Virus record (IMG/VR): IMGVR_UViG_3300034375_013346
Coordinates: 50,612 to 114,611 of that record
Origin: a virus
Length of the DNA stretch: 64,000 bases
Strand: one strand, 5' to 3'
A model generated the notes under the pieces. It ran no database searches. It was given only the letters and a program-made list of their open reading frames with translations, and was not told where the DNA came from. A program made the position numbers and the translations under genes. Below, piece by piece: positions 1,999 to 52,317 of the stretch. The number at the start of each line of letters is the position of its first letter. Position 1 is the stretch's first letter.

Positions 1999-2006
1999 TA
2001 TATATC
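1999..2006 (-). promoter_or_regulatory. GATATATA putative late promoter
   Basis: Recurrent octamer just upstream of gene starts (see findings). Confidence 0.6.
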
Positions 2007-2859: not shown

Positions 2860-4143
2860 TCAGGTATCCTGTTTACTGAGCTTCTTTTTCTCCTCGATAG
2901 CTTTGGCTTTTTTCAAAGCTGCTTCCCTAAAATATTCATGGTTTTTCCTTATCCTAGATTTTTCATTTTCGCTCATTGTAACAAAGAAAGGCATCCTCAT
3001 GATGGCTTCCATCTTCTCAGCGGAGATTTCAGGATTTCCTGTGTGATATGCAGCTAATGCAAATTCATCAAGAAGACGCCATTGCCAAATTTCAGGTTCT
3101 ACAAATAATATATCCGATGTTCCTGGATTCTTTACTGCCATATTTCCGTAAGTAAAGGAAAGAACCCATCTTTCCTGCTCCCTTAGTTTTCTCATAGCAT
3201 GGAATATAGCTTCGAGCCTTTCCGGTCTGTATTCCCAGGCTTTGGAATAGGCAGTAATGACTTCATCGGGGTGCCTCCCGAGCTGCTCTTTTAATCTACC
3301 TATCATGTAAAGGGAATAGTAAACCTCCTCATCCCATCCGCCAGCATCTGCCCTTTTTTGATAAGCGTCTATGGCTTTTACCTTCTGTTGGGAATCTCTA
3401 TAACTTTGAGCCAAATAGAACATATATCGGGTATTTTCTGGATCCTTATCTAATGCTTCCTCCAATATTTCAGCATCCTTTGCGTATTTTTCTTCCAAGG
3501 AGCTAGCCCTTTTCAGAGGACTTATATCGGCATCTACCCTACATCTGTCACCTGGAATTTGGTATTGTATTACCGGCTCTTTTCCAGGTAGATCCAAATA
3601 CTCATGCAAAACCCCTTTGTATACCCAATCTTGATCGGATCTAACTATCTGAGCTCGATGATACTGTAGGTTATTTAATCTGTACATTATCTGGAAGCAA
3701 TCAACATCAGAGGGTAAATCCGAGAATGGATTAATGTTGGGATTTAAAACTTCGAAGGTATCATCAGCATCTATTATCCATGAGTAATCACATTTACCTC
3801 TGGCTAATTCCAGACTTTCCGTGCGATTAACTTCAAAGTTAACCCAGGGTCTCTCGTAGATTTCGCCTTCTATACCAAGCTCATCCATAGTTGATTTTAT
3901 CTCATCTATTGTATTATCGCTTGATCCAGTGTCACATATTACATAATATGAGATATATGGTGCACATCTGGTTAAACATTTTCGGATCGTGTCCTCCTCA
4001 TCTTTCACGATCATAACAAGACAGAGACTAATCGATTGGGACTTATCTACTTTTTCCGTAGATGCATCCTCCGTAGCGATTTCTTTTTTACTTTCTTTGT
4101 TAATTGCAGGTCTGGATTTGCTCCTTGATTTTTTGGATGCCAT
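2860..4143 (-). CDS. GT2 glycosyltransferase with C-terminal TPR repeats
   Basis: LCLVMIVKDEE, DTGSSD, IIDADD (DxD) and GVLHE motifs, followed by TPR helices (RYMFYLAQSY, EVYYSLY, AWEYRPERLEA). Confidence 0.9.
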   Translation of the reverse strand: MASKKSRSKSRPAINKESKKEIATEDASTEKVDKSQSISLCLVMIVKDEEDTIRKCLTRCAPYISYYVICDTGSSDNTIDEIKSTMDELGIEGEIYERPWVNFEVNRTESLELARGKCDYSWIIDADDTFEVLNPNINPFSDLPSDVDCFQIMYRLNNLQYHRAQIVRSDQDWVYKGVLHEYLDLPGKEPVIQYQIPGDRCRVDADISPLKRASSLEEKYAKDAEILEEALDKDPENTRYMFYLAQSYRDSQQKVKAIDAYQKRADAGGWDEEVYYSLYMIGRLKEQLGRHPDEVITAYSKAWEYRPERLEAIFHAMRKLREQERWVLSFTYGNMAVKNPGTSDILFVEPEIWQWRLLDEFALAAYHTGNPEISAEKMEAIMRMPFFVTMSENEKSRIRKNHEYFREAALKKAKAIEEKKKLSKQDT

Positions 4144-10618: not shown

Positions 10619-10626
10619 TATATATC
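10619..10626 (-). promoter_or_regulatory. GATATATA putative late promoter
   Basis: Intergenic octamer upstream of the dUTPase gene. Confidence 0.5.
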
Positions 10627-12118: not shown

Positions 12119-12126
12119 GATATATA
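12119..12126 (+). promoter_or_regulatory. GATATATA putative late promoter
   Basis: Plus-strand copy 7 nt before the plus-strand ATG at 12134. Confidence 0.6.
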
Positions 12127-12133
12127 GAAGTAT

Positions 12134-12457
12134 ATGAAAGCTAACATCAAAAGTTTCGAAGATTTCTTATTAGAATATTACGTTTCGGAAGCTCCAGGTA
12201 GCGTTGTAGTACCGGGTGAATGGTACAAGGACAGCGTTAATTCCAGGAACTACCGCCCAGCATATACTCAAATGCCCCAAGTAGTGGACTCAATGTTCCA
12301 AACAACCGACCTATACAACTATCTGGATACCCTTTCCGAGGAGGAAGAGTTTAATAGGATAGTCAAAGAGAATAACGGAGAACCGAAGAAAATAATTAAA
12401 TATCTTAAGAGACGAATAAACGAGGAGCTTCTACCTCAGCAGAAGGGGGAAAAATAA
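12134..12457 (+). CDS. Hypothetical protein with capsid-targeting-like leader
   Basis: Starts MKANIKSFEDFLLE. Confidence 0.65.
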   Translation: MKANIKSFEDFLLEYYVSEAPGSVVVPGEWYKDSVNSRNYRPAYTQMPQVVDSMFQTTDLYNYLDTLSEEEEFNRIVKENNGEPKKIIKYLKRRINEELLPQQKGEK

Positions 12458-17681: not shown

Positions 17682-17689
17682 TATATATC
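17682..17689 (-). promoter_or_regulatory. GATATATA putative late promoter
   Basis: Intergenic octamer upstream of 17663. Confidence 0.6.
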
Positions 17690-19603
17690 TCATACATCCT
17701 TTATCAGATCGTTATAAAGGTTGGAAATCTCTCTCGGGACTAGCTTTTTAAATTTAGAAAAATCCCTATCTGCTAGGGTTTGTCTAACCTTAGTCCCTGA
17801 TGTTCCTCTAGGAGTCTCCTCTAAAGAAAAGCCCGGACCTAGTTTGTCCTTTATATCGGATACCTTTATGTAATCGAGCTGCTTTGAATAATCGTCAATT
17901 CTATCCTCCCCAGCACCAATCAATTGAGGATCATATCCCATAGAGATAAGTTTTGCAATTCCAGATCCCAAAAGTCCTCTGGTAATCATCTCATATCCAG
18001 CGATCTCCTCGTTATTCTGAACAACGGAATCCATATATCTTTTAACCGTGGCAGGGTCGAATGGAGATTTGCCAGATTTATTATGTCCTGGATGAACCAC
18101 CAAAAGATAAGAAGGGCTACCGTTCTTATCCATCATATATCTAGCCATCTTTAGATGTCCCGAATGGAATGGCTGGAATCTCCCCATAATAACATTGATC
18201 TTTCTCGACACATCCTCATTATCCTCTCTCACCTCAGAAATTCCCACCTCCTTAGGTGAACTAGTATCGATAGTTTCCAAGGCACTTATAAATTCATCAT
18301 AAGAATGGAAGTGGTCCTCGTCACTATCGGATAAATCGTCTTCCTCCTTTAAATAATTAACCGGTGCTATAAACTCCTTTCTAAACTCATTAAAAGAGAA
18401 AAATTGAGACTCGTTAACCTTCTTTTTTGGTTTTTTGATGTGTTCCTTTATCTGATTGATGAGAGAATTGAGTTGATCCTTCATCCCTGGGGTAATGATA
18501 CCTCCTGCTCTGGTCTTAATTTTTCTGAATGAATTGAGCATTAGCTTAAATAGGGCTTCAAAAGAATCATCCTTCTTAACCAGCTTAAGAACCCTGCTAT
18601 CTTTAATCATATCAAGATTCAATCTAAATTCATCTCTTTTAAGATAATCTGGTTCCTCAAAATCAGTACCACTATATTTCTTAGAATACAGATCCAAAAA
18701 CCTCACAAAGACCTCGGACATGAATGAAATATACCTCTCATCGTCAGTTTCACCCTCAACCTCAAATGAATCTATACCCTCCTCGAGAATAAAATTCATC
18801 ACATCCATGATAGTGATTCCCAAAAAATCGCTAGGTTTCTTCGATCTCCTCTCCTGGGCTTTCTGCTTAGCCAGTTCAGTAAAAACCGGATCCACCATCT
18901 TGGCTAGTACAGTGTCATTTTCCTTATCAGGTTCTCCAAATCTAAAAACTATTCCCTCAACATCCTTATCAAGATCATCATTCAGAGCTGTCTTAGTAAG
19001 ACCTGGATTTAGAGTCTTTATTATAAATCGGACAAAACTATTTGTACGGAATTTCTCGACCAACTCCTTGAACGGGGTTTCCATGAATTCCATCAGTTCC
19101 GACTTTTGCTCTTCGTCAAGTCTTCCCTGGAATATAATCGGAGGTTTTTCAACACCCAGGAGATCCGCCCAATTGTTTAATTCGTCCTTATCTTGTACGG
19201 TTTTCTTGATTTTACCCCCGTCACCCATCTGGTGTACGTAGGAAAGTATCAGATTGTTCTTTGGTATACGATCATACACAATTTCCACTGGGGATTTATT
19301 GGCAAAGTATTCAAGACCAAATCTCCATCCTCTTGGTATTCTCTCTAGGATATGGGGAGGGAGGGACTCTATGTATTGTATAGGCTTCTCATAATACTTC
19401 ATGAGGGTCCTATCCACTAAGGTTATTGGATTTCTCTGGTCCCTTCTATAAAACCTGAACTTCCCGCTTTCCCTATCCCTTTCGAAAGAAAATGCAGACC
19501 CGTCCATCTTCTCGTTAATAGTCACAAACTGGTTGAAGAGTTGATTTATAAAATCAGATCCCTTCTTATTGTACATGTCATATAGATGATTAATCCCTGC
19601 CAT
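17690..19603 (-). CDS. Fusion of an ATP-dependent ligase-type (KxDG) nucleotidyltransferase and a C-terminal HxGH cytidyltransferase/NMNAT-like domain
   Basis: INEKMDGS (ligase motif I), FGLEY, VEGIVFR, LAKMVD; C-terminal MGRFQPFHSGH, GAGEDR, SGTKVR. Confidence 0.8.
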   Translation of the reverse strand: MAGINHLYDMYNKKGSDFINQLFNQFVTINEKMDGSAFSFERDRESGKFRFYRRDQRNPITLVDRTLMKYYEKPIQYIESLPPHILERIPRGWRFGLEYFANKSPVEIVYDRIPKNNLILSYVHQMGDGGKIKKTVQDKDELNNWADLLGVEKPPIIFQGRLDEEQKSELMEFMETPFKELVEKFRTNSFVRFIIKTLNPGLTKTALNDDLDKDVEGIVFRFGEPDKENDTVLAKMVDPVFTELAKQKAQERRSKKPSDFLGITIMDVMNFILEEGIDSFEVEGETDDERYISFMSEVFVRFLDLYSKKYSGTDFEEPDYLKRDEFRLNLDMIKDSRVLKLVKKDDSFEALFKLMLNSFRKIKTRAGGIITPGMKDQLNSLINQIKEHIKKPKKKVNESQFFSFNEFRKEFIAPVNYLKEEDDLSDSDEDHFHSYDEFISALETIDTSSPKEVGISEVREDNEDVSRKINVIMGRFQPFHSGHLKMARYMMDKNGSPSYLLVVHPGHNKSGKSPFDPATVKRYMDSVVQNNEEIAGYEMITRGLLGSGIAKLISMGYDPQLIGAGEDRIDDYSKQLDYIKVSDIKDKLGPGFSLEETPRGTSGTKVRQTLADRDFSKFKKLVPREISNLYNDLIKDV

Positions 19604-25834: not shown

Positions 25835-26620
25835 CTAAGTGTCCCAAAAGTTTCCCCTAGATTGTATATATCCCGAACTTTTTTTCATATTGTTACTCCT
25901 ATTTACCTCCTTGTGAGATAGCATATTCCCTCGGAGAGAAACTTGTAGATCACTCCTTATTATTTTATATCCGGATATAAGCAAATGGTTTCTTAATAGG
26001 GTTTCAGGGTGGAAAAAAACAGAATCTCTAGAAAGATAGTTTTCTATGCTTCTATACAATCCACAGTAGTGAGACATAGGATTTCTACCCCCATATGCTA
26101 TTACATCGTTAATTCCACCCCTCCAATCAAACCCATGCGGAATATTTATTACTGACTTGTCAGGGTCGAAAAAAAGATCGTTATGGATCTTTATATCGAA
26201 TCTACCTTTTATAACATAGTCATATTTCTTTCCCACGGAGCTCTCGTATTTTTCCATGAGGGAATATGAGGAGTCTATTTTATACCACATACAGAATACC
26301 GACTGCGGGTTCATTTCACCATTCATCGGAGAATACTCATCATATAAGTTTGATCTTTCGAGGATTCTTGTTATGGAATCAGAATCAAAATCCTCGGATA
26401 GCATCAGTTTGGGCTTATACATGGAGATAATATCACCAACCGAGAGACTATCACTAAGATTAGACGTATCTGCTTGTACTGTAGAATTTATATGATCCGA
26501 AGGATTCCAGCACGAGATAAAAACATCGGGTGAATACACATCGAGTATTCTGCTCTTTATATATGGATAACATTCAAGGCCCTCTCTAAATTGACCAGAA
26601 AGAAGTAAAGCAACCCTCAT
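25835..26620 (-). CDS. Putative glycosyltransferase-like protein
   Basis: MRVALLLSGQFR, DVFISCW, YDYVIKGRFD, INDVIAYG, HPETLL: a pattern seen in uncharacterised GT-A-like proteins of polysaccharide loci and viruses. Confidence 0.6.
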   Translation of the reverse strand: MRVALLLSGQFREGLECYPYIKSRILDVYSPDVFISCWNPSDHINSTVQADTSNLSDSLSVGDIISMYKPKLMLSEDFDSDSITRILERSNLYDEYSPMNGEMNPQSVFCMWYKIDSSYSLMEKYESSVGKKYDYVIKGRFDIKIHNDLFFDPDKSVINIPHGFDWRGGINDVIAYGGRNPMSHYCGLYRSIENYLSRDSVFFHPETLLRNHLLISGYKIIRSDLQVSLRGNMLSHKEVNRSNNMKKSSGYIQSRGNFWDT

Positions 26621-27063
26621 TGATACCTTTCTATATAGTCACTACAGACACCCATACACAGGGAGATATCCTCCCCGTGGATCTCGGGCATAACAGCTAT
26701 GCTTCCTTCTATAGGTTGGTTACCAACAAGAGCCCATCTATATCCTTTGCTAGTAAAGACAACATCATCAGAATCATGCATAAAATAGTTCAGCACGTTC
26801 CCCTTAGGATCCATAACGGAAAGTTCCCTGAAGGAAGGGATATTCTTGCAGTGTATCCAAAGCTTTTCGGAGTGTTCAACCAAGAAGGAGTACTGTGTGT
26901 CATACTGCGGTCTATCATGGCCAAGTTTAAAAAGCCCATCAACAAACCATAAATCTATCTCAACGTCATATTTTTCCATTGCTTTCAAAATATAATCAGT
27001 CGAGTTTTCCCTCTCAGGAGATGACCCGTTTACATTACCCCGGTGAGATATAAGTATCATCAA
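26617..27063 (-). CDS. PI-PLC/GDPD-like phosphodiesterase (short TIM-barrel type)
   Basis: ISHRGN, EN, DVEIDLW, LGHD.P, WIHCKN, GVCSDY. Confidence 0.75.
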   Translation of the reverse strand: MMILISHRGNVNGSSPERENSTDYILKAMEKYDVEIDLWFVDGLFKLGHDRPQYDTQYSFLVEHSEKLWIHCKNIPSFRELSVMDPKGNVLNYFMHDSDDVVFTSKGYRWALVGNQPIEGSIAVMPEIHGEDISLCMGVCSDYIERYQ

Positions 27064-28257
27064 TTATTTAGGATTTCCAAACTTACCAACAGCTTCCCTG
27101 AATTCTTTACCAACAATTCCATCTATTGCCTGCCTCATTGCTATGGCTCCACTTTTAGTCCCACTAGGGTGACCGTGCATAGCCCCACCTACATTAGCTA
27201 GATAATCTACGCCAACCTGCTCGTTTATATTGTTAACTAGACCAGGATGAAATCCGCAGCTTAGAGCAGGAAGGGTTCCTTGTTTTCTTGACTCCTCCAT
27301 CGCTTTTAAAACTTCTTCCTCATCAGCAGGATAATATCCGCCAATCATACCAGAGTGTATAAAATCAACACCCATCATTCCTGCCAGTTTACACATGAAG
27401 GGCCAGGATATACTAAAATTGTGATCCGGGTTCGTTATAACCCGATCCCCGCTCTTTTGGAAGTGCATGAATATGGGAAGATCCAATTCCCTGATATTTT
27501 TATAAGACCCGAGACCACACCAAAAATTGACATGCACCCCATTGCCACCTAATTCATGAACCTGCTTTACCCTTTCCAGTATATAAGCTGGATCCGAATG
27601 TATGGAAACACAATAGACAACCCTTTTATCTTTCAGGTAATCCATTATAAGAGGAACCCTATCCTCTATCCTGCAAAAAGAGGGGCTTGATAGTATTTCA
27701 TCCTCTTTGATAAAATTCACACCACCTTCAACCATCTCTTTTACCATCTCAAGCATTATCCTAGGGGAAACTCCGGTCTTAGGTTTTAATATACCGCCGA
27801 GTAAAGGTTTATCATATACCCCAGTGTATTCGCGGATACCATTTATTCCGTACTTGGGCCCTAGAAAACATTCCGAAACACAATCAGGGAATTCAATATC
27901 CAATAATTTGCAAGATTTGATCTCTTCAATATCCATCTGTCCACCCATCACATTTACCAAGAGGTGAGATACACCATCTGTTCTAAAATCTATATTTACA
28001 ACAGGGAATGCAATTATAACCTCCCCAGAGGTGCTATCCAGCATGCTTTCCATATCTCCTACTATGATACAGGAGTGATCCCGAAACAGCTCCTCAGTTT
28101 CCCATACGCTCCTGGAAGACGGGTTACCTACACTCTGTCCTATCGCTATATTCCAAGCAGCAGATGCCAGATTTTTGGAACATTCAACATAGTATTTAGC
28201 AAAGAAATAATTCTCGCTATCTATTTGTTCCTTTAATTTAAATAAATCAGATTTCAT
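27064..28257 (-). CDS. RuBisCO-like protein (form IV RLP), divergent active site
   Basis: FLGPKYGI.GIR, GGILKPKTG, GVNFIKEDE, GVDFIHSG, LSCG, VGGAMHGHPSG...GA.AMRQA: all RuBisCO large-subunit motifs. Confidence 0.93.
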   Translation of the reverse strand: MKSDLFKLKEQIDSENYFFAKYYVECSKNLASAAWNIAIGQSVGNPSSRSVWETEELFRDHSCIIVGDMESMLDSTSGEVIIAFPVVNIDFRTDGVSHLLVNVMGGQMDIEEIKSCKLLDIEFPDCVSECFLGPKYGINGIREYTGVYDKPLLGGILKPKTGVSPRIMLEMVKEMVEGGVNFIKEDEILSSPSFCRIEDRVPLIMDYLKDKRVVYCVSIHSDPAYILERVKQVHELGGNGVHVNFWCGLGSYKNIRELDLPIFMHFQKSGDRVITNPDHNFSISWPFMCKLAGMMGVDFIHSGMIGGYYPADEEEVLKAMEESRKQGTLPALSCGFHPGLVNNINEQVGVDYLANVGGAMHGHPSGTKSGAIAMRQAIDGIVGKEFREAVGKFGNPK

Positions 28258-28567
28258 ATTTATCTCCCGGTTTAGAGGGTGTCTTAACTATAAAAACCTC
28301 GCAATCCTCGAGGAAAACTGGATTAGCTATCTCATATCTCCGTATGACAAAAACGTCACCAGATTCGAGGACTCTATCCTGTATAATCATTCTACCCTTA
28401 TGTAAGTAATTTATTTCGTCCGCTTCCTTATGGTAATGTGCTGTCCATTCCTCTCCCTTTTTATGTTCCTTAAAGCAGACCTCAAATTTATCGGTTTCAT
28501 AAGATGAAGGTAAGAAATCACCAACAAACCAACCTCCCTTATATTCTTCTATTCTAGATACTTCCAT
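28247..28567 (-). CDS. Cupin-domain protein (possible sugar isomerase/epimerase)
   Basis: GWFVGDF, HYHK...E.N....G.M, GD.F. Confidence 0.75.
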   Translation of the reverse strand: MEVSRIEEYKGGWFVGDFLPSSYETDKFEVCFKEHKKGEEWTAHYHKEADEINYLHKGRMIIQDRVLESGDVFVIRRYEIANPVFLEDCEVFIVKTPSKPGDKYEI

Positions 28568-29300
28568 ATCTTACTTTATTTTTGTATATCTCCAAATCCT
28601 CCGGCGTCCCTATCGGGAAATGAAGGTTAAAAAAATATGGCAATATTTTCTTACCCCTTTTTATAAGATAGTTGTATGTTGGGGCAACATAAAACTCATT
28701 GTTATATCGATCATTATTGTCGATCATCTCAAGGGCAGATTCAACAAAATCTGAACCCCTCTCCCAGTAATGTAGCCCGTTAGTGGCTATATTCGAAATA
28801 ACTATCTTTTCCTTGACATCACAAACTTCTCCATTAGGGTCAAGCTTGACATAGCTATTTTTTTTAGACGAGGAAAGGAAGCATCCTATAAATCCATCAC
28901 AATTGGTATTAGAAGCGAACTTGGCTAAAATACCCAGATTAAAATCCAGTATTACCTGGTCACAATTCGCTATAATAAGTGGATTTTTAGTGTTAATAAG
29001 GTCTTTCGCAAGGAGTGCGGTACAAGCTGGGCCCTCAGTTAATGCTGGAGTAGAAACGACATCAAAAGAGATTCCAGTATCACCTATATGTTCCCTGAAT
29101 TCATCGATAGAAATATGCTCCTCATTGATGACAAATATGAAGTGTGAAGACCCGTCTCTGAGGTTATCGATTACTGTCCTTATCATGGAATCATCTATAA
29201 CTTTGATGTAGGGTTTTATCTCACTGTATCCAGCATCAGAAAACCTTCTTCCCATTCCCCCCAGAGGTATCAATATGTTAATCTTCTTTGAGTCTCTCAT
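28554..29300 (-). CDS. Sugar-phosphate nucleotidyltransferase / GT2 BcbE-like protein
   Basis: ILIPLGGMGRRF...KP, TEGPACT, IANCDQ, V.EK..ISN.A..G, NEFYVAP.YN, IGTPEDL. Confidence 0.85.
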   Translation of the reverse strand: MRDSKKINILIPLGGMGRRFSDAGYSEIKPYIKVIDDSMIRTVIDNLRDGSSHFIFVINEEHISIDEFREHIGDTGISFDVVSTPALTEGPACTALLAKDLINTKNPLIIANCDQVILDFNLGILAKFASNTNCDGFIGCFLSSSKKNSYVKLDPNGEVCDVKEKIVISNIATNGLHYWERGSDFVESALEMIDNNDRYNNEFYVAPTYNYLIKRGKKILPYFFNLHFPIGTPEDLEIYKNKVRYGSI

Positions 29301-29946
29301 CTAAAAACAGACATATCCAGGTGGCATCAATAATATCATCCAATGGCTTATTCACGTTCCCACTGGGGGTTATCCATTCACCCTTATTATCATTTAGTAT
29401 ATTAGTGAAATAGCTCAGGTTGGTTTCAACGATTTCGGTATTAATCAGTGCCTCATACAATTGATCCTTTTTGGCATTCCCCTTAATCGCAAATTTTTTA
29501 ACAGAGGTTGGGGAGAAAACGAAAAAATTTGAGCTTCCTACGAAATCTACTATCTTTTTCCGGAGCAAGGCAGTTGCCATTGATATGTCTATAAGTGCAT
29601 TGCCATTAGAAGCAAAGCTTAAGCCCTCTATAGCTATAAACACATCATCTCCAGGCTCAATGTGGTTCTTAACAGAGTCCCAGAATTTTTCCACCAGATC
29701 CGAAAAATAATCAATTTTTATCCTCTCTCTTTCAGTGTATTCATCAGGCATTTTCTCCTTGCCCATGAACACAAGATCAAATTCATCAATATCCGAAAAG
29801 AAAGCAAATGGCTTATTTTTAGACTTTTTCAAGGATTCCTCAGATCTGTCACTCCTTGTAAGTGATCCCCATCTAAAATGATTATCTCTAAACGAACAAA
29901 ATGCTGGGGAATTCAATGAGAAATCTATTCCTATAAGGGTTCTCAA
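29278..29946 (-). CDS. RuvC-like Holliday junction resolvase (RNase H fold)
   Basis: IGIDFSLNSP, IAIEG, PTSVKKFA.KGNAKK, DDIIDA. Confidence 0.8.
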   Translation of the reverse strand: MRTLIGIDFSLNSPAFCSFRDNHFRWGSLTRSDRSEESLKKSKNKPFAFFSDIDEFDLVFMGKEKMPDEYTERERIKIDYFSDLVEKFWDSVKNHIEPGDDVFIAIEGLSFASNGNALIDISMATALLRKKIVDFVGSSNFFVFSPTSVKKFAIKGNAKKDQLYEALINTEIVETNLSYFTNILNDNKGEWITPSGNVNKPLDDIIDATWICLFLDERLKED

Positions 29947-29971: not shown

Positions 29972-29979
29972 TATATATC
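29972..29979 (-). promoter_or_regulatory. GATATATA putative late promoter heading the RuvC-RLP operon
   Basis: Octamer right after a terminator, about 25 nt upstream of the TTG start at 29946. Confidence 0.6.
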
Positions 29980-29984
29980 ACCAC

Positions 29985-30010
29985 AAAAAACCCCGGGATT
30001 CCGGGGTTTT
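29985..30010 (-). terminator. Rho-independent terminator
   Basis: AAAAAACCCCGG-gatt-CCGGGGTTTT. Confidence 0.8.
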
Positions 30011-30670: not shown

Positions 30671-30678
30671 TATATATC
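30671..30678 (-). promoter_or_regulatory. GATATATA putative late promoter
   Basis: Intergenic octamer upstream of 30649. Confidence 0.6.
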
Positions 30679-50861: not shown

Positions 50862-51650
50862 ATGCTTGGAAATAAACACTCCCATAGGAGAGTATATGAT
50901 TTGAAGCTTAATAAATCCGAATTGAGACTGATTGATTCGGACAAACCCAAGCTTGTCCCGGTCATTATATGTACCTGGATGAGGGTAGAAGGGTTCAATA
51001 AAGTGGTGGAAGCCCTAAATAAACAGACAAACAAGAACTTCAAGCTGTTTATATGGAACAACAATTCGGATATTACCGAGGATATACTAGATATATTAAC
51101 AAAAAAAGCATCCTTTAGCTCAGAGATTTTCGAAAGCGATTTTAATATAGGAGGGTTTGGTAGATTCTATTTTGCAAATCACCTATATGGAAATCCAGAA
51201 TTGAGCAGGTATTGCATCTTCATAGATGACGACCAAACGTTTGAGGAAGATACGATAGAAAAATTCTTAAAAGAGGCCCTACCTAAGACCATACTTTCCC
51301 AGTGGTCCTGGAAATTTAATTCAACGAGATACTTCGGAAGAGAAAACAGGATACTAGTTGACCCACACGAAGAAGTTCACCACTGTGGAACTGGGGGTAT
51401 GGTAGCAGATATGGAAATATTCATGGAAAAAGGTCTCTATGAATGTCCAAAGAAATACTGGTTTATAGAGGATCTCTGGCTTTCATACTTCTCAAGTCAT
51501 AAAAAAGGATATAAACTACTAAAGAGTTCCACAGTATTTAAGAACGGGTCAGATAAGTATAATCTGAACGATATAGTAAAAGATCAAAAAGAAACCATGC
51601 TAGCCGAATTGATAGAAGATCTAGGATGGAGCATACTCAAAAATAATTAA
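50862..51650 (+). CDS. GT2-family glycosyltransferase
   Basis: VIICTW.R, L..QT...F...IWNN, NIGGFGRF, IFIDDD, IEDLWLS. Confidence 0.8.
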   Translation: MLGNKHSHRRVYDLKLNKSELRLIDSDKPKLVPVIICTWMRVEGFNKVVEALNKQTNKNFKLFIWNNNSDITEDILDILTKKASFSSEIFESDFNIGGFGRFYFANHLYGNPELSRYCIFIDDDQTFEEDTIEKFLKEALPKTILSQWSWKFNSTRYFGRENRILVDPHEEVHHCGTGGMVADMEIFMEKGLYECPKKYWFIEDLWLSYFSSHKKGYKLLKSSTVFKNGSDKYNLNDIVKDQKETMLAELIEDLGWSILKNN

Positions 51651-51654
51651 AAAA

Positions 51655-52317
51655 ATGCCTGAAAACACCCAAAAGAGAGTACCCAAAGGGGATATAAAGT
51701 TCACAATCTCCTTATCAGAGGAGCAGAAACTAGCAAAAGCAGAAATTAGAAACCATCCATTTAGCTTTATAACAGGGAAGGCAGGTAGTGGCAAAACTCT
51801 GTTAGCGGTCCAAATAGCTCTGGACTCATACTTCAAAAGGGAGGTAAACAAAATAGTAATCACCAGACCCACGGTATCTAACGAGGATAATGGTTTTTTA
51901 CCAGGTTCTTTAGAGGAAAAGATGGAACCTTGGCTAGTTCCTATAAGATCCAACATGAGAAAGGTCTACAATAAACCGGATATACTAGAAAAAATGGAAA
52001 AAGATGAGAACATAGAGCTTGTGTCTCTAACACATTTTAGGGGCAGAACTTTTGATGACTGCATCGTGATTGTAGACGAATTCCAAAATCTCACTAAACA
52101 GCAGCTAGGGATGGTACTAGGTAGACTTGGAAAGAACTCAAAAATGATGTTGTGCGGGGACGGGCAACAAATAGATCTTAAATTCAATAACGACTCAGCA
52201 ATACATGAGGTTCCCAAACTTAAGGATTCATCCTTTGTTTATACGATTTCACTTAAGGACAACCATAGACACGAATCAATAGACGAGGTACTTAGGCTAC
52301 TTGCTAATAGTTACTGA
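51655..52317 (+). CDS. phoH: PhoH-like ATPase
   Basis: GKAGSGKT, GFLPG..EEKM.PW, RGRTF, VDEFQN, LGRLG, GD..QIDL, RH. Confidence 0.95.
   Translation: MPENTQKRVPKGDIKFTISLSEEQKLAKAEIRNHPFSFITGKAGSGKTLLAVQIALDSYFKREVNKIVITRPTVSNEDNGFLPGSLEEKMEPWLVPIRSNMRKVYNKPDILEKMEKDENIELVSLTHFRGRTFDDCIVIVDEFQNLTKQQLGMVLGRLGKNSKMMLCGDGQQIDLKFNNDSAIHEVPKLKDSSFVYTISLKDNHRHESIDEVLRLLANSY

What the first reader, a model, noticed from the sequence alone, without database searches (positions are those of the whole stretch)
25835..29300. Phage five-gene RuBisCO-like sugar-modification cassette (nucleotidyltransferase, cupin, RLP, phosphodiesterase, GT-like)
Seen: five minus-strand genes with overlapping or abutting ends (28554/28567, 28247/28257, 27063/27064, 26617/26620), wedged between the RuvC-like resolvase and gp32 SSB. 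They encode a BcbE-like sugar nucleotidyltransferase, a cupin, a form-IV RuBisCO-like protein, a short PI-PLC/GDPD-like phosphodiesterase and a GT-like protein. Known: characterised RLPs work in methionine salvage (DK-MTP-1-P enolase) or in catabolism of branched and acid sugars (e.g. apionate), and I know of none assigned to glycan biosynthesis or encoded by a phage. BcbE-like proteins occur in capsule loci. Inference: the cassette makes an unusual, possibly branched or carboxylated, sugar phosphate by RLP enediolate chemistry. The cupin would isomerise it, the NTP transferase activate it as an NDP-sugar, and the GT-like and phosphodiesterase proteins transfer or trim it. The target could be phage DNA (the cassette sits in the replication module) or virion proteins (it lies downstream of the GATATATA late-type motif). 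No methionine-salvage genes are in the window.
Basis: partly seen in the sequence, partly recalled or inferred. Interest (0 to 1): 0.95.

Follow-up and report, generated by a model that had tools for sequence, protein, structure and literature searches.

The report
Phage RuBisCO-like sugar-activation gene cassette
A large marine phage, probably of a Bacteroidota host, carries a RuBisCO relative that cannot fix CO2 and always travels with a sugar-activating enzyme and a miniature phosphodiesterase, usually among surface-sugar genes, which points to an untested sugar-building job for the RuBisCO fold.

Summary
Five overlapping or abutting minus-strand genes lie at exactly the stated coordinates, and all five fold-level calls hold: 4evw-type nucleotidyltransferase, metal-motif cupin, form-IV-type RuBisCO-like protein (RLP), 148-aa miniature GDPD phosphodiesterase and GT-A-fold protein.

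The cassette is not chimeric. Two independent contigs (116 and 185 kb) show the same synteny, and GC content is even.

Across 96 related loci, those with at least 3 kb of flank (n=38) carry the nucleotidyltransferase in 38, the mini-GDPD in 37, the cupin in 29 and the GT-A protein in 23. Natural RLP-nucleotidyltransferase-cupin fusions exist. Elsewhere the core sits among glycan genes, including on a Patescibacteria contig with seven GT2 genes.

The RLP keeps the Mg/carbamate core (K175, K177, K201, D203, E204, H327). It invariantly replaces the carboxylase residues (E60G, N123G, H294Q, R295K, K334Y).

The most likely function is synthesis of an unusual nucleotide-activated sugar for a glycan. 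The chemistry is unknown.

Two caveats apply. This scan has also found the same cassette many times on other DNA. No paper found links an RLP to glycan synthesis.

The parts
29985..30006 (-). GC-rich hairpin (6-bp stem, 4-nt loop) followed by T6. Likely the terminator of the upstream gene, marking the 5' edge of the transcription unit.
   Evidence: Read directly in the sequence. The consensus terminator scan did not list it.
29972..29979 (-). GATATATA motif 26 nt upstream of the RuvC-like ORF. Candidate promoter element for RuvC-like plus g5 to g1.
   Evidence: Ten of 11 copies in the window lie on the coding strand, and most are within 75 nt upstream of an ORF start. The count alone is not significant (11 against 7.0 +/- 2.9).
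29278..29946 (-). RuvC-like resolvase gene. It overlaps g5 by 23 nt and is probably co-transcribed. It is a neighbour, not part of the pathway.
   Evidence: phrog_159, E=8e-15; ORF coordinates.
28554..29300 (-). g5: 4evw-type sugar-phosphate nucleotidyltransferase (G15-x-G17-x-R19 motif). Universal partner of the RLP.
   Evidence: PF00483 38.9 bits. PDB 4evw E=2e-28, full length. Present in 38/38 well-flanked loci. Fused to the RLP, cupin, HAD, methyltransferase or GT2 elsewhere.
28247..28567 (-). g4: 106-aa single-domain cupin with an H-x-H-x4-E motif plus invariant H35. Accessory tailoring enzyme.
   Evidence: Present in 29/38 loci, with a median gap to the RLP of -4 nt. Linked with methyltransferases.
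27064..28257 (-). g3: form-IV-type RuBisCO-like protein of the phage/CPR clade. The Mg/carbamate core is intact and the carboxylase residues are replaced.
   Evidence: PF00016 119 bits; PDB and NCBIfam comparisons; active-site table over 139 sequences; tree.
26617..27063 (-). g2: 148-aa miniature GDPD-fold phosphodiesterase with the catalytic H7-R8, E35-x-D37 and H49-D50 motifs.
   Evidence: Present in 37/38 loci.
25835..26620 (-). g1: DUF7796-type GT-A-fold protein, a probable glycosyltransferase. Accessory.
   Evidence: phrog_13607; Atlas; AF2 pLDDT 76 and Foldseek GT6 probability 1.0, TM about 0.45. Present in 23/38 loci.

Best explanation
The cassette is a portable module that makes and delivers an unusual nucleotide-activated sugar, or sugar-like phosphate, for a glycan.

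Shown here:
- The five folds.
- The near-obligate trio of RLP, nucleotidyltransferase and mini-GDPD.
- The natural fusions.
- The glycan-gene context in other genomes.
- An RLP active site that keeps the metal/carbamate enolisation machinery and has lost every carboxylation-specific residue.

Inferred pathway:
1. The RLP enolises and rearranges a host keto-sugar monophosphate. It uses carbamylated K184 with Mg2+ (D186, E187) and K158/K160. The kept P1 phosphate pocket holds the phosphate. The remodelled distal pocket (K268, D271, H301, Y308) holds a polar, non-phosphate end.
2. The 4evw-type transferase joins the product to a nucleotide.
3. The cupin, where present, isomerises or epimerises the activated sugar. 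In other lineages a CmcI- or FkbM-type methyltransferase then O-methylates it.
4. The GT-A protein, or other glycosyltransferases, puts the unit on an acceptor.

The mini-GDPD step is the least certain. My best guess is that it makes or resolves a phosphodiester at the transfer end, for example by passing sugar-phosphate from the nucleotide donor to the acceptor.

The target is most likely a surface glycan of the infected, probably Bacteroidota, cell, or virion proteins.
For: - Co-occurrence in loci with at least 3 kb of flank (n=38): nucleotidyltransferase 38, mini-GDPD 37, cupin 29, GT-A 23. Genes are nearly always on one strand in the order g5-g4-g3-(MT)-g2.
- Fusions: P0121 and P0122 read RLP(1-390)-nucleotidyltransferase(398-637)-cupin(708-814). 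g5 relatives are fused to HAD-IA, a second transferase domain, a CmcI methyltransferase or GT2. Nucleotidyltransferase-cupin fusions appear in the Atlas.
- Neighbours elsewhere: GDP-mannose 4,6-dehydratase, UDP-glucose dehydrogenase, UDP-GlcNAc 2-epimerase, DegT aminotransferase, GT1/GT2/GT7 and methyltransferases.
- The Patescibacteria contig has the core among seven GT2 genes, three methyltransferases and a B12-radical-SAM gene.
- This phage also has two GT2 genes, a UGDH-like gene and an SDR epimerase/dehydratase.
- The active-site signature is invariant in 139 sequences that share only 52-66% identity.
- The mini-GDPD keeps its catalytic motifs.
Against: - No biochemical datum exists for any of the five proteins or for PDB 4evw.
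- The substrate, the nucleotide and the order of steps are inferred. The RLP could act on the activated sugar instead of before activation.
- In this window the cassette lies in a replication-gene neighbourhood (RuvC-like, SSB, primase), not in a glycan island.
- The nearest characterised cousins of the RLP are catabolic.
- There is no kinase or mutase in the core, so the phosphorylated substrate must come from the host.
- The role proposed for the mini-GDPD has no direct support.
- No expression data could be obtained.
Confidence: 0.62

Rival explanations
1. DNA hypermodification. The cassette makes an activated sugar that the GT-A protein attaches to phage DNA bases to evade host nucleases.
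For: In this window the cassette sits between the RuvC-like resolvase and the gp32-like SSB and primase genes. It is probably co-transcribed with the RuvC-like gene.
Against: - The held 114.6 kb has no thymidylate-synthase/dCMP-hydroxymethylase family gene, though this is only about 42% of the genome.
- In other viruses and in a Patescibacteria contig the same core lies among classical glycan genes, not replication genes.
- The GT-A protein is absent from 15 of 38 loci.
Confidence: 0.08
2. Sulfur or SAM by-product salvage. As in methionine salvage (MtnW plus ARD cupin) or the R. rubrum MTA-isoprenoid shunt (RLP plus cupin methylsulfurylase), the RLP and cupin recycle methylthio- or 5-deoxy-ribulose-1-phosphate.
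For: RLP-cupin pairing has these two precedents (my own knowledge of the pathways). The cupin overlaps the RLP gene, with a median gap of -4 nt. MtnW structures score as high as form III RuBisCO (127 bits).
Against: - MtnW models are far below cutoff: 127 against 514 bits and 155 against 409 bits.
- The cupin is missing in 9 of 38 loci, while the nucleotidyltransferase and mini-GDPD, which have no role in salvage, are nearly universal.
- No other salvage genes were seen in the neighbourhoods. The neighbours are glycan enzymes.
Confidence: 0.07
3. Catabolic auxiliary metabolism. Like its nearest cellular cousins, the RLP helps break down an acid sugar or pentose to feed host central metabolism during infection.
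For: The closest plasmid-borne relatives (25-31% identity) sit beside DUF1537 or FGGY kinases and transporters, and OiaX is a decarboxylase in apiose catabolism.
Against: - No kinase, transporter or dehydrogenase of that kind accompanies the viral clade.
- The clade is separated from those references by a long, well-supported branch.
- It differs from them at K177, H294, R295 and K334.
- Its constant partner is a nucleotidyltransferase, which is an anabolic signature.
Confidence: 0.08
4. A nucleotide-linked small molecule that is not a glycan donor, such as a signal, inhibitor or anti-defence metabolite, with the mini-GDPD processing a phosphodiester in it.
For: - The obligate trio (RLP, transferase, phosphodiesterase) contains no glycosyltransferase.
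- The cassette stands alone here, away from this phage's other glycan genes.
Against: The core is repeatedly embedded in glycosyltransferase-rich islands, and the transferase is fused to GT2 and to sugar methyltransferases.
Confidence: 0.1
5. A true CO2-fixing RuBisCO, working as in form III nucleotide salvage.
For: The best NCBIfam and PDB scores are to form III enzymes. K175, K177, K201, D203 and E204 are kept.
Against: - E60, N123, H294 and K334 are invariantly G, G, Q and Y, and R295 is K.
- TIGR03326 scores 185 bits against a cutoff of 497.
Confidence: 0.01

Closest known systems
'Form IV-like' RuBisCO-related proteins of phages and Beckwithbacteria (Jaffe, Castelle, Dupont, Banfield 2019, Mol Biol Evol; PMC6389311)
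   Same: - Phage-borne, from IMG/VR contigs that include large genomes.
- Highly divergent from other RLPs.
- Lacks carboxylase residues.
- The nearest cellular relative is a CPR/Patescibacteria sequence.
   Different: The paper left the function 'unclear', and the text I read gives no gene-neighbourhood analysis. Added here: the obligate nucleotidyltransferase and mini-GDPD partners, the fusions and the glycan context. I could not compare directly with their sequences.
MtnW / YkrW 2,3-diketo-5-methylthiopentyl-1-phosphate enolase (PDB 2oek, 2zvi)
   Same: RuBisCO fold. Keeps the carbamate lysine, the metal ligands and K175. A non-carboxylating enolase-type active site. Works with a cupin downstream in its pathway.
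   Different: Scores are far below the family cutoffs. K177 is kept, and there is a distinctive Q/K/D/Y set at positions 294, 295, 298 and 334. The partners are a nucleotidyltransferase and a phosphodiesterase, not salvage enzymes.
OiaX 3-oxo-isoapionate-4-phosphate decarboxylase and the DUF1537-kinase-linked RLPs
   Same: The best-scoring annotated relatives in plasmids, at 28-31% identity. They act on small phosphorylated keto (acid) sugars.
   Different: These are catabolic operons with kinases and transporters. Their active sites keep H294, R295 and K334 and lack K177. A long branch separates them from the viral clade. NF042437 scores 138 bits against a cutoff of 700.
Glycerophosphodiester phosphodiesterases (GDPD; e.g. 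PDB 1o1z, 1vd6, 7e0v)
   Same: Same barrel topology (Z 9.9-10.5, about 140 residues aligned) and the H-R, E-x-D and H-D catalytic motifs.
   Different: Only 148 aa, against 220-250 for a normal barrel. No Pfam match at E<=0.01. The position I align to the third metal ligand reads H71, not Glu (my own reading of the motif). The substrate is unknown.
PDB 4evw, 'nucleoside-diphosphate-sugar pyrophosphorylase' (structural-genomics entry)
   Same: Full-length alignment to the g5 family profile, E=2e-28.
   Different: 4evw has no assigned substrate, and no functional paper was found. RmlA, ManC and GalU are much more distant, at E about 1e-9 or weaker.

Membership tests
RuBisCO large-subunit superfamily (PF00016) | Catalytic-domain profile match above the Pfam gathering score | tested here: met
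   119.3 bits against a cutoff of 30.1.
Carboxylating RuBisCO (forms I-III) | Carbamate lysine K201 and metal ligands D203 and E204, plus K175 | tested here: met
   K184, D186, E187 and K158. Invariant in 138-139 of 139 clade members.
Carboxylating RuBisCO (forms I-III) | Carboxylation and closure residues E60, N123, H294 and K334, and P2-site R295 and H298 | tested here: not met
   G40, G106, Q267, Y308, K268 and D271. The first four are invariant in all 139 sequences; K268 and D271 are in 138 of 139. TIGR03326 scores 185 bits against a cutoff of 497.
MtnW methionine-salvage enolase | Equivalog model score (TIGR03332, NF007095) | tested here: not met
   126.7 against 513.6 bits and 155.1 against 409 bits.
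MtnW methionine-salvage enolase | Neighbouring salvage genes (isomerase, dehydratase, phosphatase, ARD dioxygenase) | tested here: not met
   The Pfam-scanned representatives of the recurrent neighbour families are glycan enzymes. The cupin matched no Pfam family other than Cupin_2 at E<=0.01.
OiaX / DUF1537-linked RLPs | Equivalog score and an adjacent four-carbon acid sugar kinase | tested here: not met
   138.1 bits against a cutoff of 700. No DUF1537-type kinase was found among the Pfam-scanned neighbours; the references have one.
Phage/CPR 'form IV-like' clade (Jaffe et al. 2019) | Viral contigs, nearest cellular kin in CPR bacteria, and separation from other RLPs | tested here: met
   - 15 IMG/VR loci.
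- The only hit among 185,579 species genomes is a Patescibacteria MAG.
- 1 of 401 genomes of that phylum carries the clade.
- The clade is split from six references with SH-aLRT 99.
Phage/CPR 'form IV-like' clade (Jaffe et al. 2019) | Direct grouping with the published sequences | not testable with these tools
GDPD phosphodiesterases (PF03009) | Catalytic H-R, E-x-D and H-D motifs and the barrel fold | tested here: met
   Invariant H7, R8, E35, D37, H49 and D50. PDB profile hit to 7e0v at E=1e-4. VIA Z 10.5, 140 residues aligned.
GDPD phosphodiesterases (PF03009) | Pfam profile match and a full-size barrel of about 220-250 aa | tested here: not met
   No Pfam family at E<=0.01. The protein is 148 aa.
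Cupin_2 (PF07883) | Profile score above the gathering cutoff | tested here: not met
   17 bits against a cutoff of 27.2. The cupin motif 1 and the profile hits to solved cupins (E=4e-6) still show the fold.
Sugar-1-phosphate nucleotidyltransferases (PF00483) | Profile score and the G-x-G-x-R signature | tested here: met
   38.9 bits against a cutoff of 21.2. Invariant G15, G17 and R19.
GT-A glycosyltransferases (GT6-like) | GT-A fold | tested here: met
   Foldseek probability 1.0, E=3e-7 to BoGT6a and the ABO transferases. TM is only 0.43-0.46 and model pLDDT is 76.
GT-A glycosyltransferases (GT6-like) | Donor-binding DxD-type motif and transferase activity | tested here: inconclusive
   The invariant residues are D32, Y133-D134 and R140-x-D142. 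I did not map them onto a GT6 active site.

The most novel reading that the evidence does not exclude
The RuBisCO fold has an anabolic role never demonstrated before. This clade would rearrange a keto-sugar phosphate into a rare sugar unit. A dedicated nucleotidyltransferase would activate the unit, and a miniature GDPD-fold enzyme would install it, possibly as a phosphodiester-linked decoration, on surface glycans of infected cells or on virions. The module would be spread by phages across marine and freshwater microbes.
Probability: 0.45. Interest if true: 0.8.

Novelty: new variant of a known kind. Interest (0 to 1): 0.6.

Why it matters
Every characterised RuBisCO-like protein works in salvage or catabolism. 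A glycan-building branch would add a new reaction class to one of the most studied enzyme folds.

It would also define a new activated sugar and give a function to a gene family with thousands of members in ocean and lake metagenomes. For phage biology, it would show that large phages remodel host or virion surface sugars with their own chemistry.

The trio is small enough to express and assay directly, so the question is testable now.

Tried and rejected
I obtained context through the search for related loci instead.
- Complex prediction on the RLP plus nucleotidyltransferase gave no verdict (score 0.00 against a mark of 0.32). This is no evidence either way.
- tblastn of the RLP and blastn of the cassette against 50,697 GenBank phage records gave no match.
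- The sigma-70 promoter and terminator consensus scans found nothing above chance in the cassette and missed the hairpin at 30006-29985.
- There are no tRNA genes in the window.
- My first active-site table used a wrong numbering offset after residue 201. It is corrected.
- My HAD profile was contaminated with transferase sequence. Only hits of at least 200 bits are real, so HAD occurs in about 7 of 96 loci and not 48.
- The tree is the quick IQ-TREE run because the careful search did not finish. It has only six references and no MtnW, DeepYkr, IV-Photo, form II or form III rows, so it shows separation and not placement.
- A search with 'of L017' failed on syntax and was redone through a handle.
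- Literature searches for an RLP together with a nucleotidyltransferase, cupin or glycosyltransferase, and for 4evw, found nothing relevant.
- I did not test earlier scan notes that the cassette occurs in SAR11, Legionella, DPANN archaea and giant viruses.

Full report
**Observation.** Their ends overlap by 14, 11, 0 and 4 nt. Upstream, a RuvC-like ORF (29278-29946, phrog_159) overlaps g5 by 23 nt. Downstream, a gp32-like SSB starts 41 nt after g1, followed by a primase. GC content is even across the region. The window is part of a 114.6-kb IMG/VR virus record judged about 42% complete.

**What the proteins are.**
- g3 matches the RuBisCO large-chain catalytic domain at 119 bits.
- g5 matches NTP_transferase at 38.9 bits. 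As a family profile it aligns full-length with PDB 4evw, an uncharacterised NDP-sugar pyrophosphorylase, at E=2e-28. That is far better than its matches to RmlA, ManC or GalU.
- g4 falls below the Cupin_2 cutoff (17 bits) but has the cupin motif H44-x-H46-x4-E51-x6-G58 plus an invariant H35. Its profile hits solved cupins at E=4e-6.
- g2 has no Pfam hit. It carries invariant H7-R8-G9, E19-N20, E35-x-D37 and H49-D50, which is the GDPD signature. Its profile hits the GDPD structure 7e0v at E=1e-4. A confident model (pLDDT 96) aligns about 140 of its 148 residues across whole GDPD barrels at Z up to 10.5, and the top 22 rows are all GDPD or PLD-type enzymes. It is a miniaturised barrel, not a fragment.
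- g1 belongs to a mostly viral family (DUF7796). It models as a GT-A fold closest to GT6 enzymes, with Foldseek probability 1.0 but TM only about 0.45.

**It is a conserved unit, not a chimera.** Two independent contigs of 116 kb and 185 kb carry an 86%-identical RLP. On the 116-kb contig the same flanking genes were confirmed. Fifteen IMG/VR loci, one Patescibacteria contig and 80 metagenome contigs carry the RLP clade. Profile searches on loci with at least 3 kb on both sides (n=38) find the nucleotidyltransferase in 38, the mini-GDPD in 37, the cupin in 29 and the GT-A protein in 23. Genes are nearly always on one strand, in the order g5-g4-g3-(methyltransferase)-g2. The cupin typically overlaps the RLP gene, with a median gap of -4 nt.

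Natural fusions exist. P0121 and P0122 read RLP-nucleotidyltransferase-cupin in about 815 residues. Relatives of g5 are also fused to an N-terminal HAD-IA domain, a second transferase domain, a CmcI-type methyltransferase or GT2. The Atlas shows transferase-cupin fusions. True HAD domains occur in only about 7 of my 96 RLP loci.

**Context points to glycans.** Elsewhere the core lies among bona fide GDP-mannose 4,6-dehydratase, UDP-glucose dehydrogenase, UDP-GlcNAc 2-epimerase, a DegT aminotransferase, GT1/GT2/GT7 transferases and CmcI- or FkbM-type methyltransferases. A methyltransferase is present in 19 of 29 cupin-containing loci and in none of 9 cupin-less loci (p about 0.001, not corrected for relatedness).

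On the Patescibacteria contig the core is flanked by seven GT2 genes, three methyltransferases and a B12-radical-SAM gene. Only 1 of 401 sampled genomes of that phylum has the clade.

This phage itself has a GT2-TPR gene (2860-4143), a GT2 next to PhoH (50862-52317), and a UGDH-like gene plus an SDR epimerase/dehydratase upstream of the window. The held sequence has no thymidylate-synthase/hydroxymethylase homologue. A type-B T9SS C-terminal domain above its cutoff on a 1014-aa ORF suggests a Bacteroidota host.

**The RLP active site.** I aligned 139 clade members (52-99% identical to the window protein) to C. necator form I as a ruler.
- Kept: K175, K177, K201, D203, E204, H327, S379, G381 and G403/404.
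- Replaced: E60G, T65N, W66P, N123G, T173I, H294Q, R295K, H298D and K334Y. All but R295K and H298D (138 of 139 each) are invariant across the 139 sequences.

The enolisation core and the proximal phosphate pocket are therefore intact. Carboxylation residues are gone, and the distal phosphate site has become K/D/H/Y, which suits a polar non-phosphate end. That last point is inference.

Scores to all curated models are far below cutoff: form III 185 against 497, MtnW 127 against 514, OiaX 138 against 700. Solved form III and MtnW structures score alike. The nearest annotated relatives, at 25-31% identity, sit beside DUF1537 or FGGY kinases and transporters in catabolic operons. They differ at K177, H294, R295 and K334. 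In a quick tree the viral/CPR clade is split from six references by a long branch with SH-aLRT 99. The tree lacks MtnW, DeepYkr, IV-Photo and form II/III rows.

**Mechanism.** My best reading (confidence 0.62 for the general claim) has four steps.
1. The RLP rearranges a host keto-sugar monophosphate.
2. The transferase activates the product with a nucleotide.
3. The cupin, and in other lineages a methyltransferase, tailors the activated sugar.
4. A GT-A or other glycosyltransferase delivers it.

The N-to-C order of the triple fusion and the transferase's fusions to tailoring enzymes fit this order, but do not prove it. The mini-GDPD is catalytically intact and nearly obligate. I guess that it makes or resolves a phosphodiester at the transfer end. 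This is the weakest step.

Rivals are DNA modification, SAM by-product salvage, catabolism, a non-glycan nucleotide-linked metabolite, and true carboxylation. The last is excluded by the residues.

**Transcription.** A GC hairpin plus T6 (30006-29985) is followed by GATATATA (29979-29972), 26 nt before the RuvC-like start. The cassette is therefore probably transcribed with that gene. The motif is not enriched by count (11 against 7.0 +/- 2.9). However, 10 of 11 copies are on the coding strand and most lie just upstream of ORF starts.

**Prior knowledge.** Jaffe et al. 2019 reported about 80 divergent form-IV-related proteins on phage contigs, some from Myoviridae, grouping with Beckwithbacteria, and left the function unclear. 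The 2007 GOS paper had already noted ocean-only RuBisCO-homologue clades. I found no paper that ties an RLP to a nucleotidyltransferase or to glycan synthesis.

This scan has flagged the same cassette many times on other DNA, with the same reading. From those notes I re-tested the active-site set, the catabolic cousins, the fusions, the HAD link and the T9SS domain. I did not test the claimed SAR11, Legionella, DPANN or giant-virus occurrences.

**Verdict.** This is a real, conserved and well-defined module. The enzyme clade is already published. The pathway context is not, and the chemistry is unknown.

Noticed in passing
window 1999-2006, 2832-2839, 10619-10626, 12119-12126, 17682-17689, 25865-25872, 29972-29979, 30671-30678 and others: GATATATA is not enriched by count, but 10 of 11 copies lie on the coding strand. 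Most are within about 75 nt upstream of an ORF start, including the single plus-strand copy, which is 8 nt before the plus-strand ORF at 12134. It looks like a phage promoter element.
   Followed up: partly
window 17690-19603 (-): A 637-aa protein with an N-terminal RNA-ligase domain (PF09414) and a C-terminal region matching PHROG 'cytidyltransferase' families. This is a second nucleotidyltransferase-type gene in the window.
   Followed up: partly
window 50862-52317 (+): A two-gene plus-strand islet, GT2 glycosyltransferase then PhoH, inside the minus-strand block of very large structural or unknown proteins. A further GT2-TPR gene lies at 2860-4143 (-).
   Followed up: partly
G000:C1:12866-14544 (upstream of the window; L023): Adjacent UDP-glucose-dehydrogenase-like (277 aa) and SDR epimerase/dehydratase (279 aa) genes, so the phage may make its own UDP-sugar derivatives.
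   Followed up: partly
G000:C1:22696-25740 (+) (upstream of the window; L104): A 1014-aa ORF ends in a type-B T9SS C-terminal domain (TIGR04131, 40.9 bits against a cutoff of 35). This hints at a Bacteroidota host and at a phage-encoded secreted cargo.
   Followed up: partly
L009:4568-5674: Here the cassette's nucleotidyltransferase has a C-terminal extension of about 120 aa with a DLDGT HAD-type motif. This arrangement differs from the common N-terminal HAD-IA fusions.
   Followed up: no
L017:9744-11114: A B12-binding radical-SAM enzyme and two class-I methyltransferases sit next to the GT2 block that flanks the RLP core on the Patescibacteria contig.
   Followed up: no
window 38559-62026 (-): Five proteins of 736-1841 aa have little or no PHROG annotation (only unknown-function families), so this phage's structural module is largely uncharted.
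   Followed up: no
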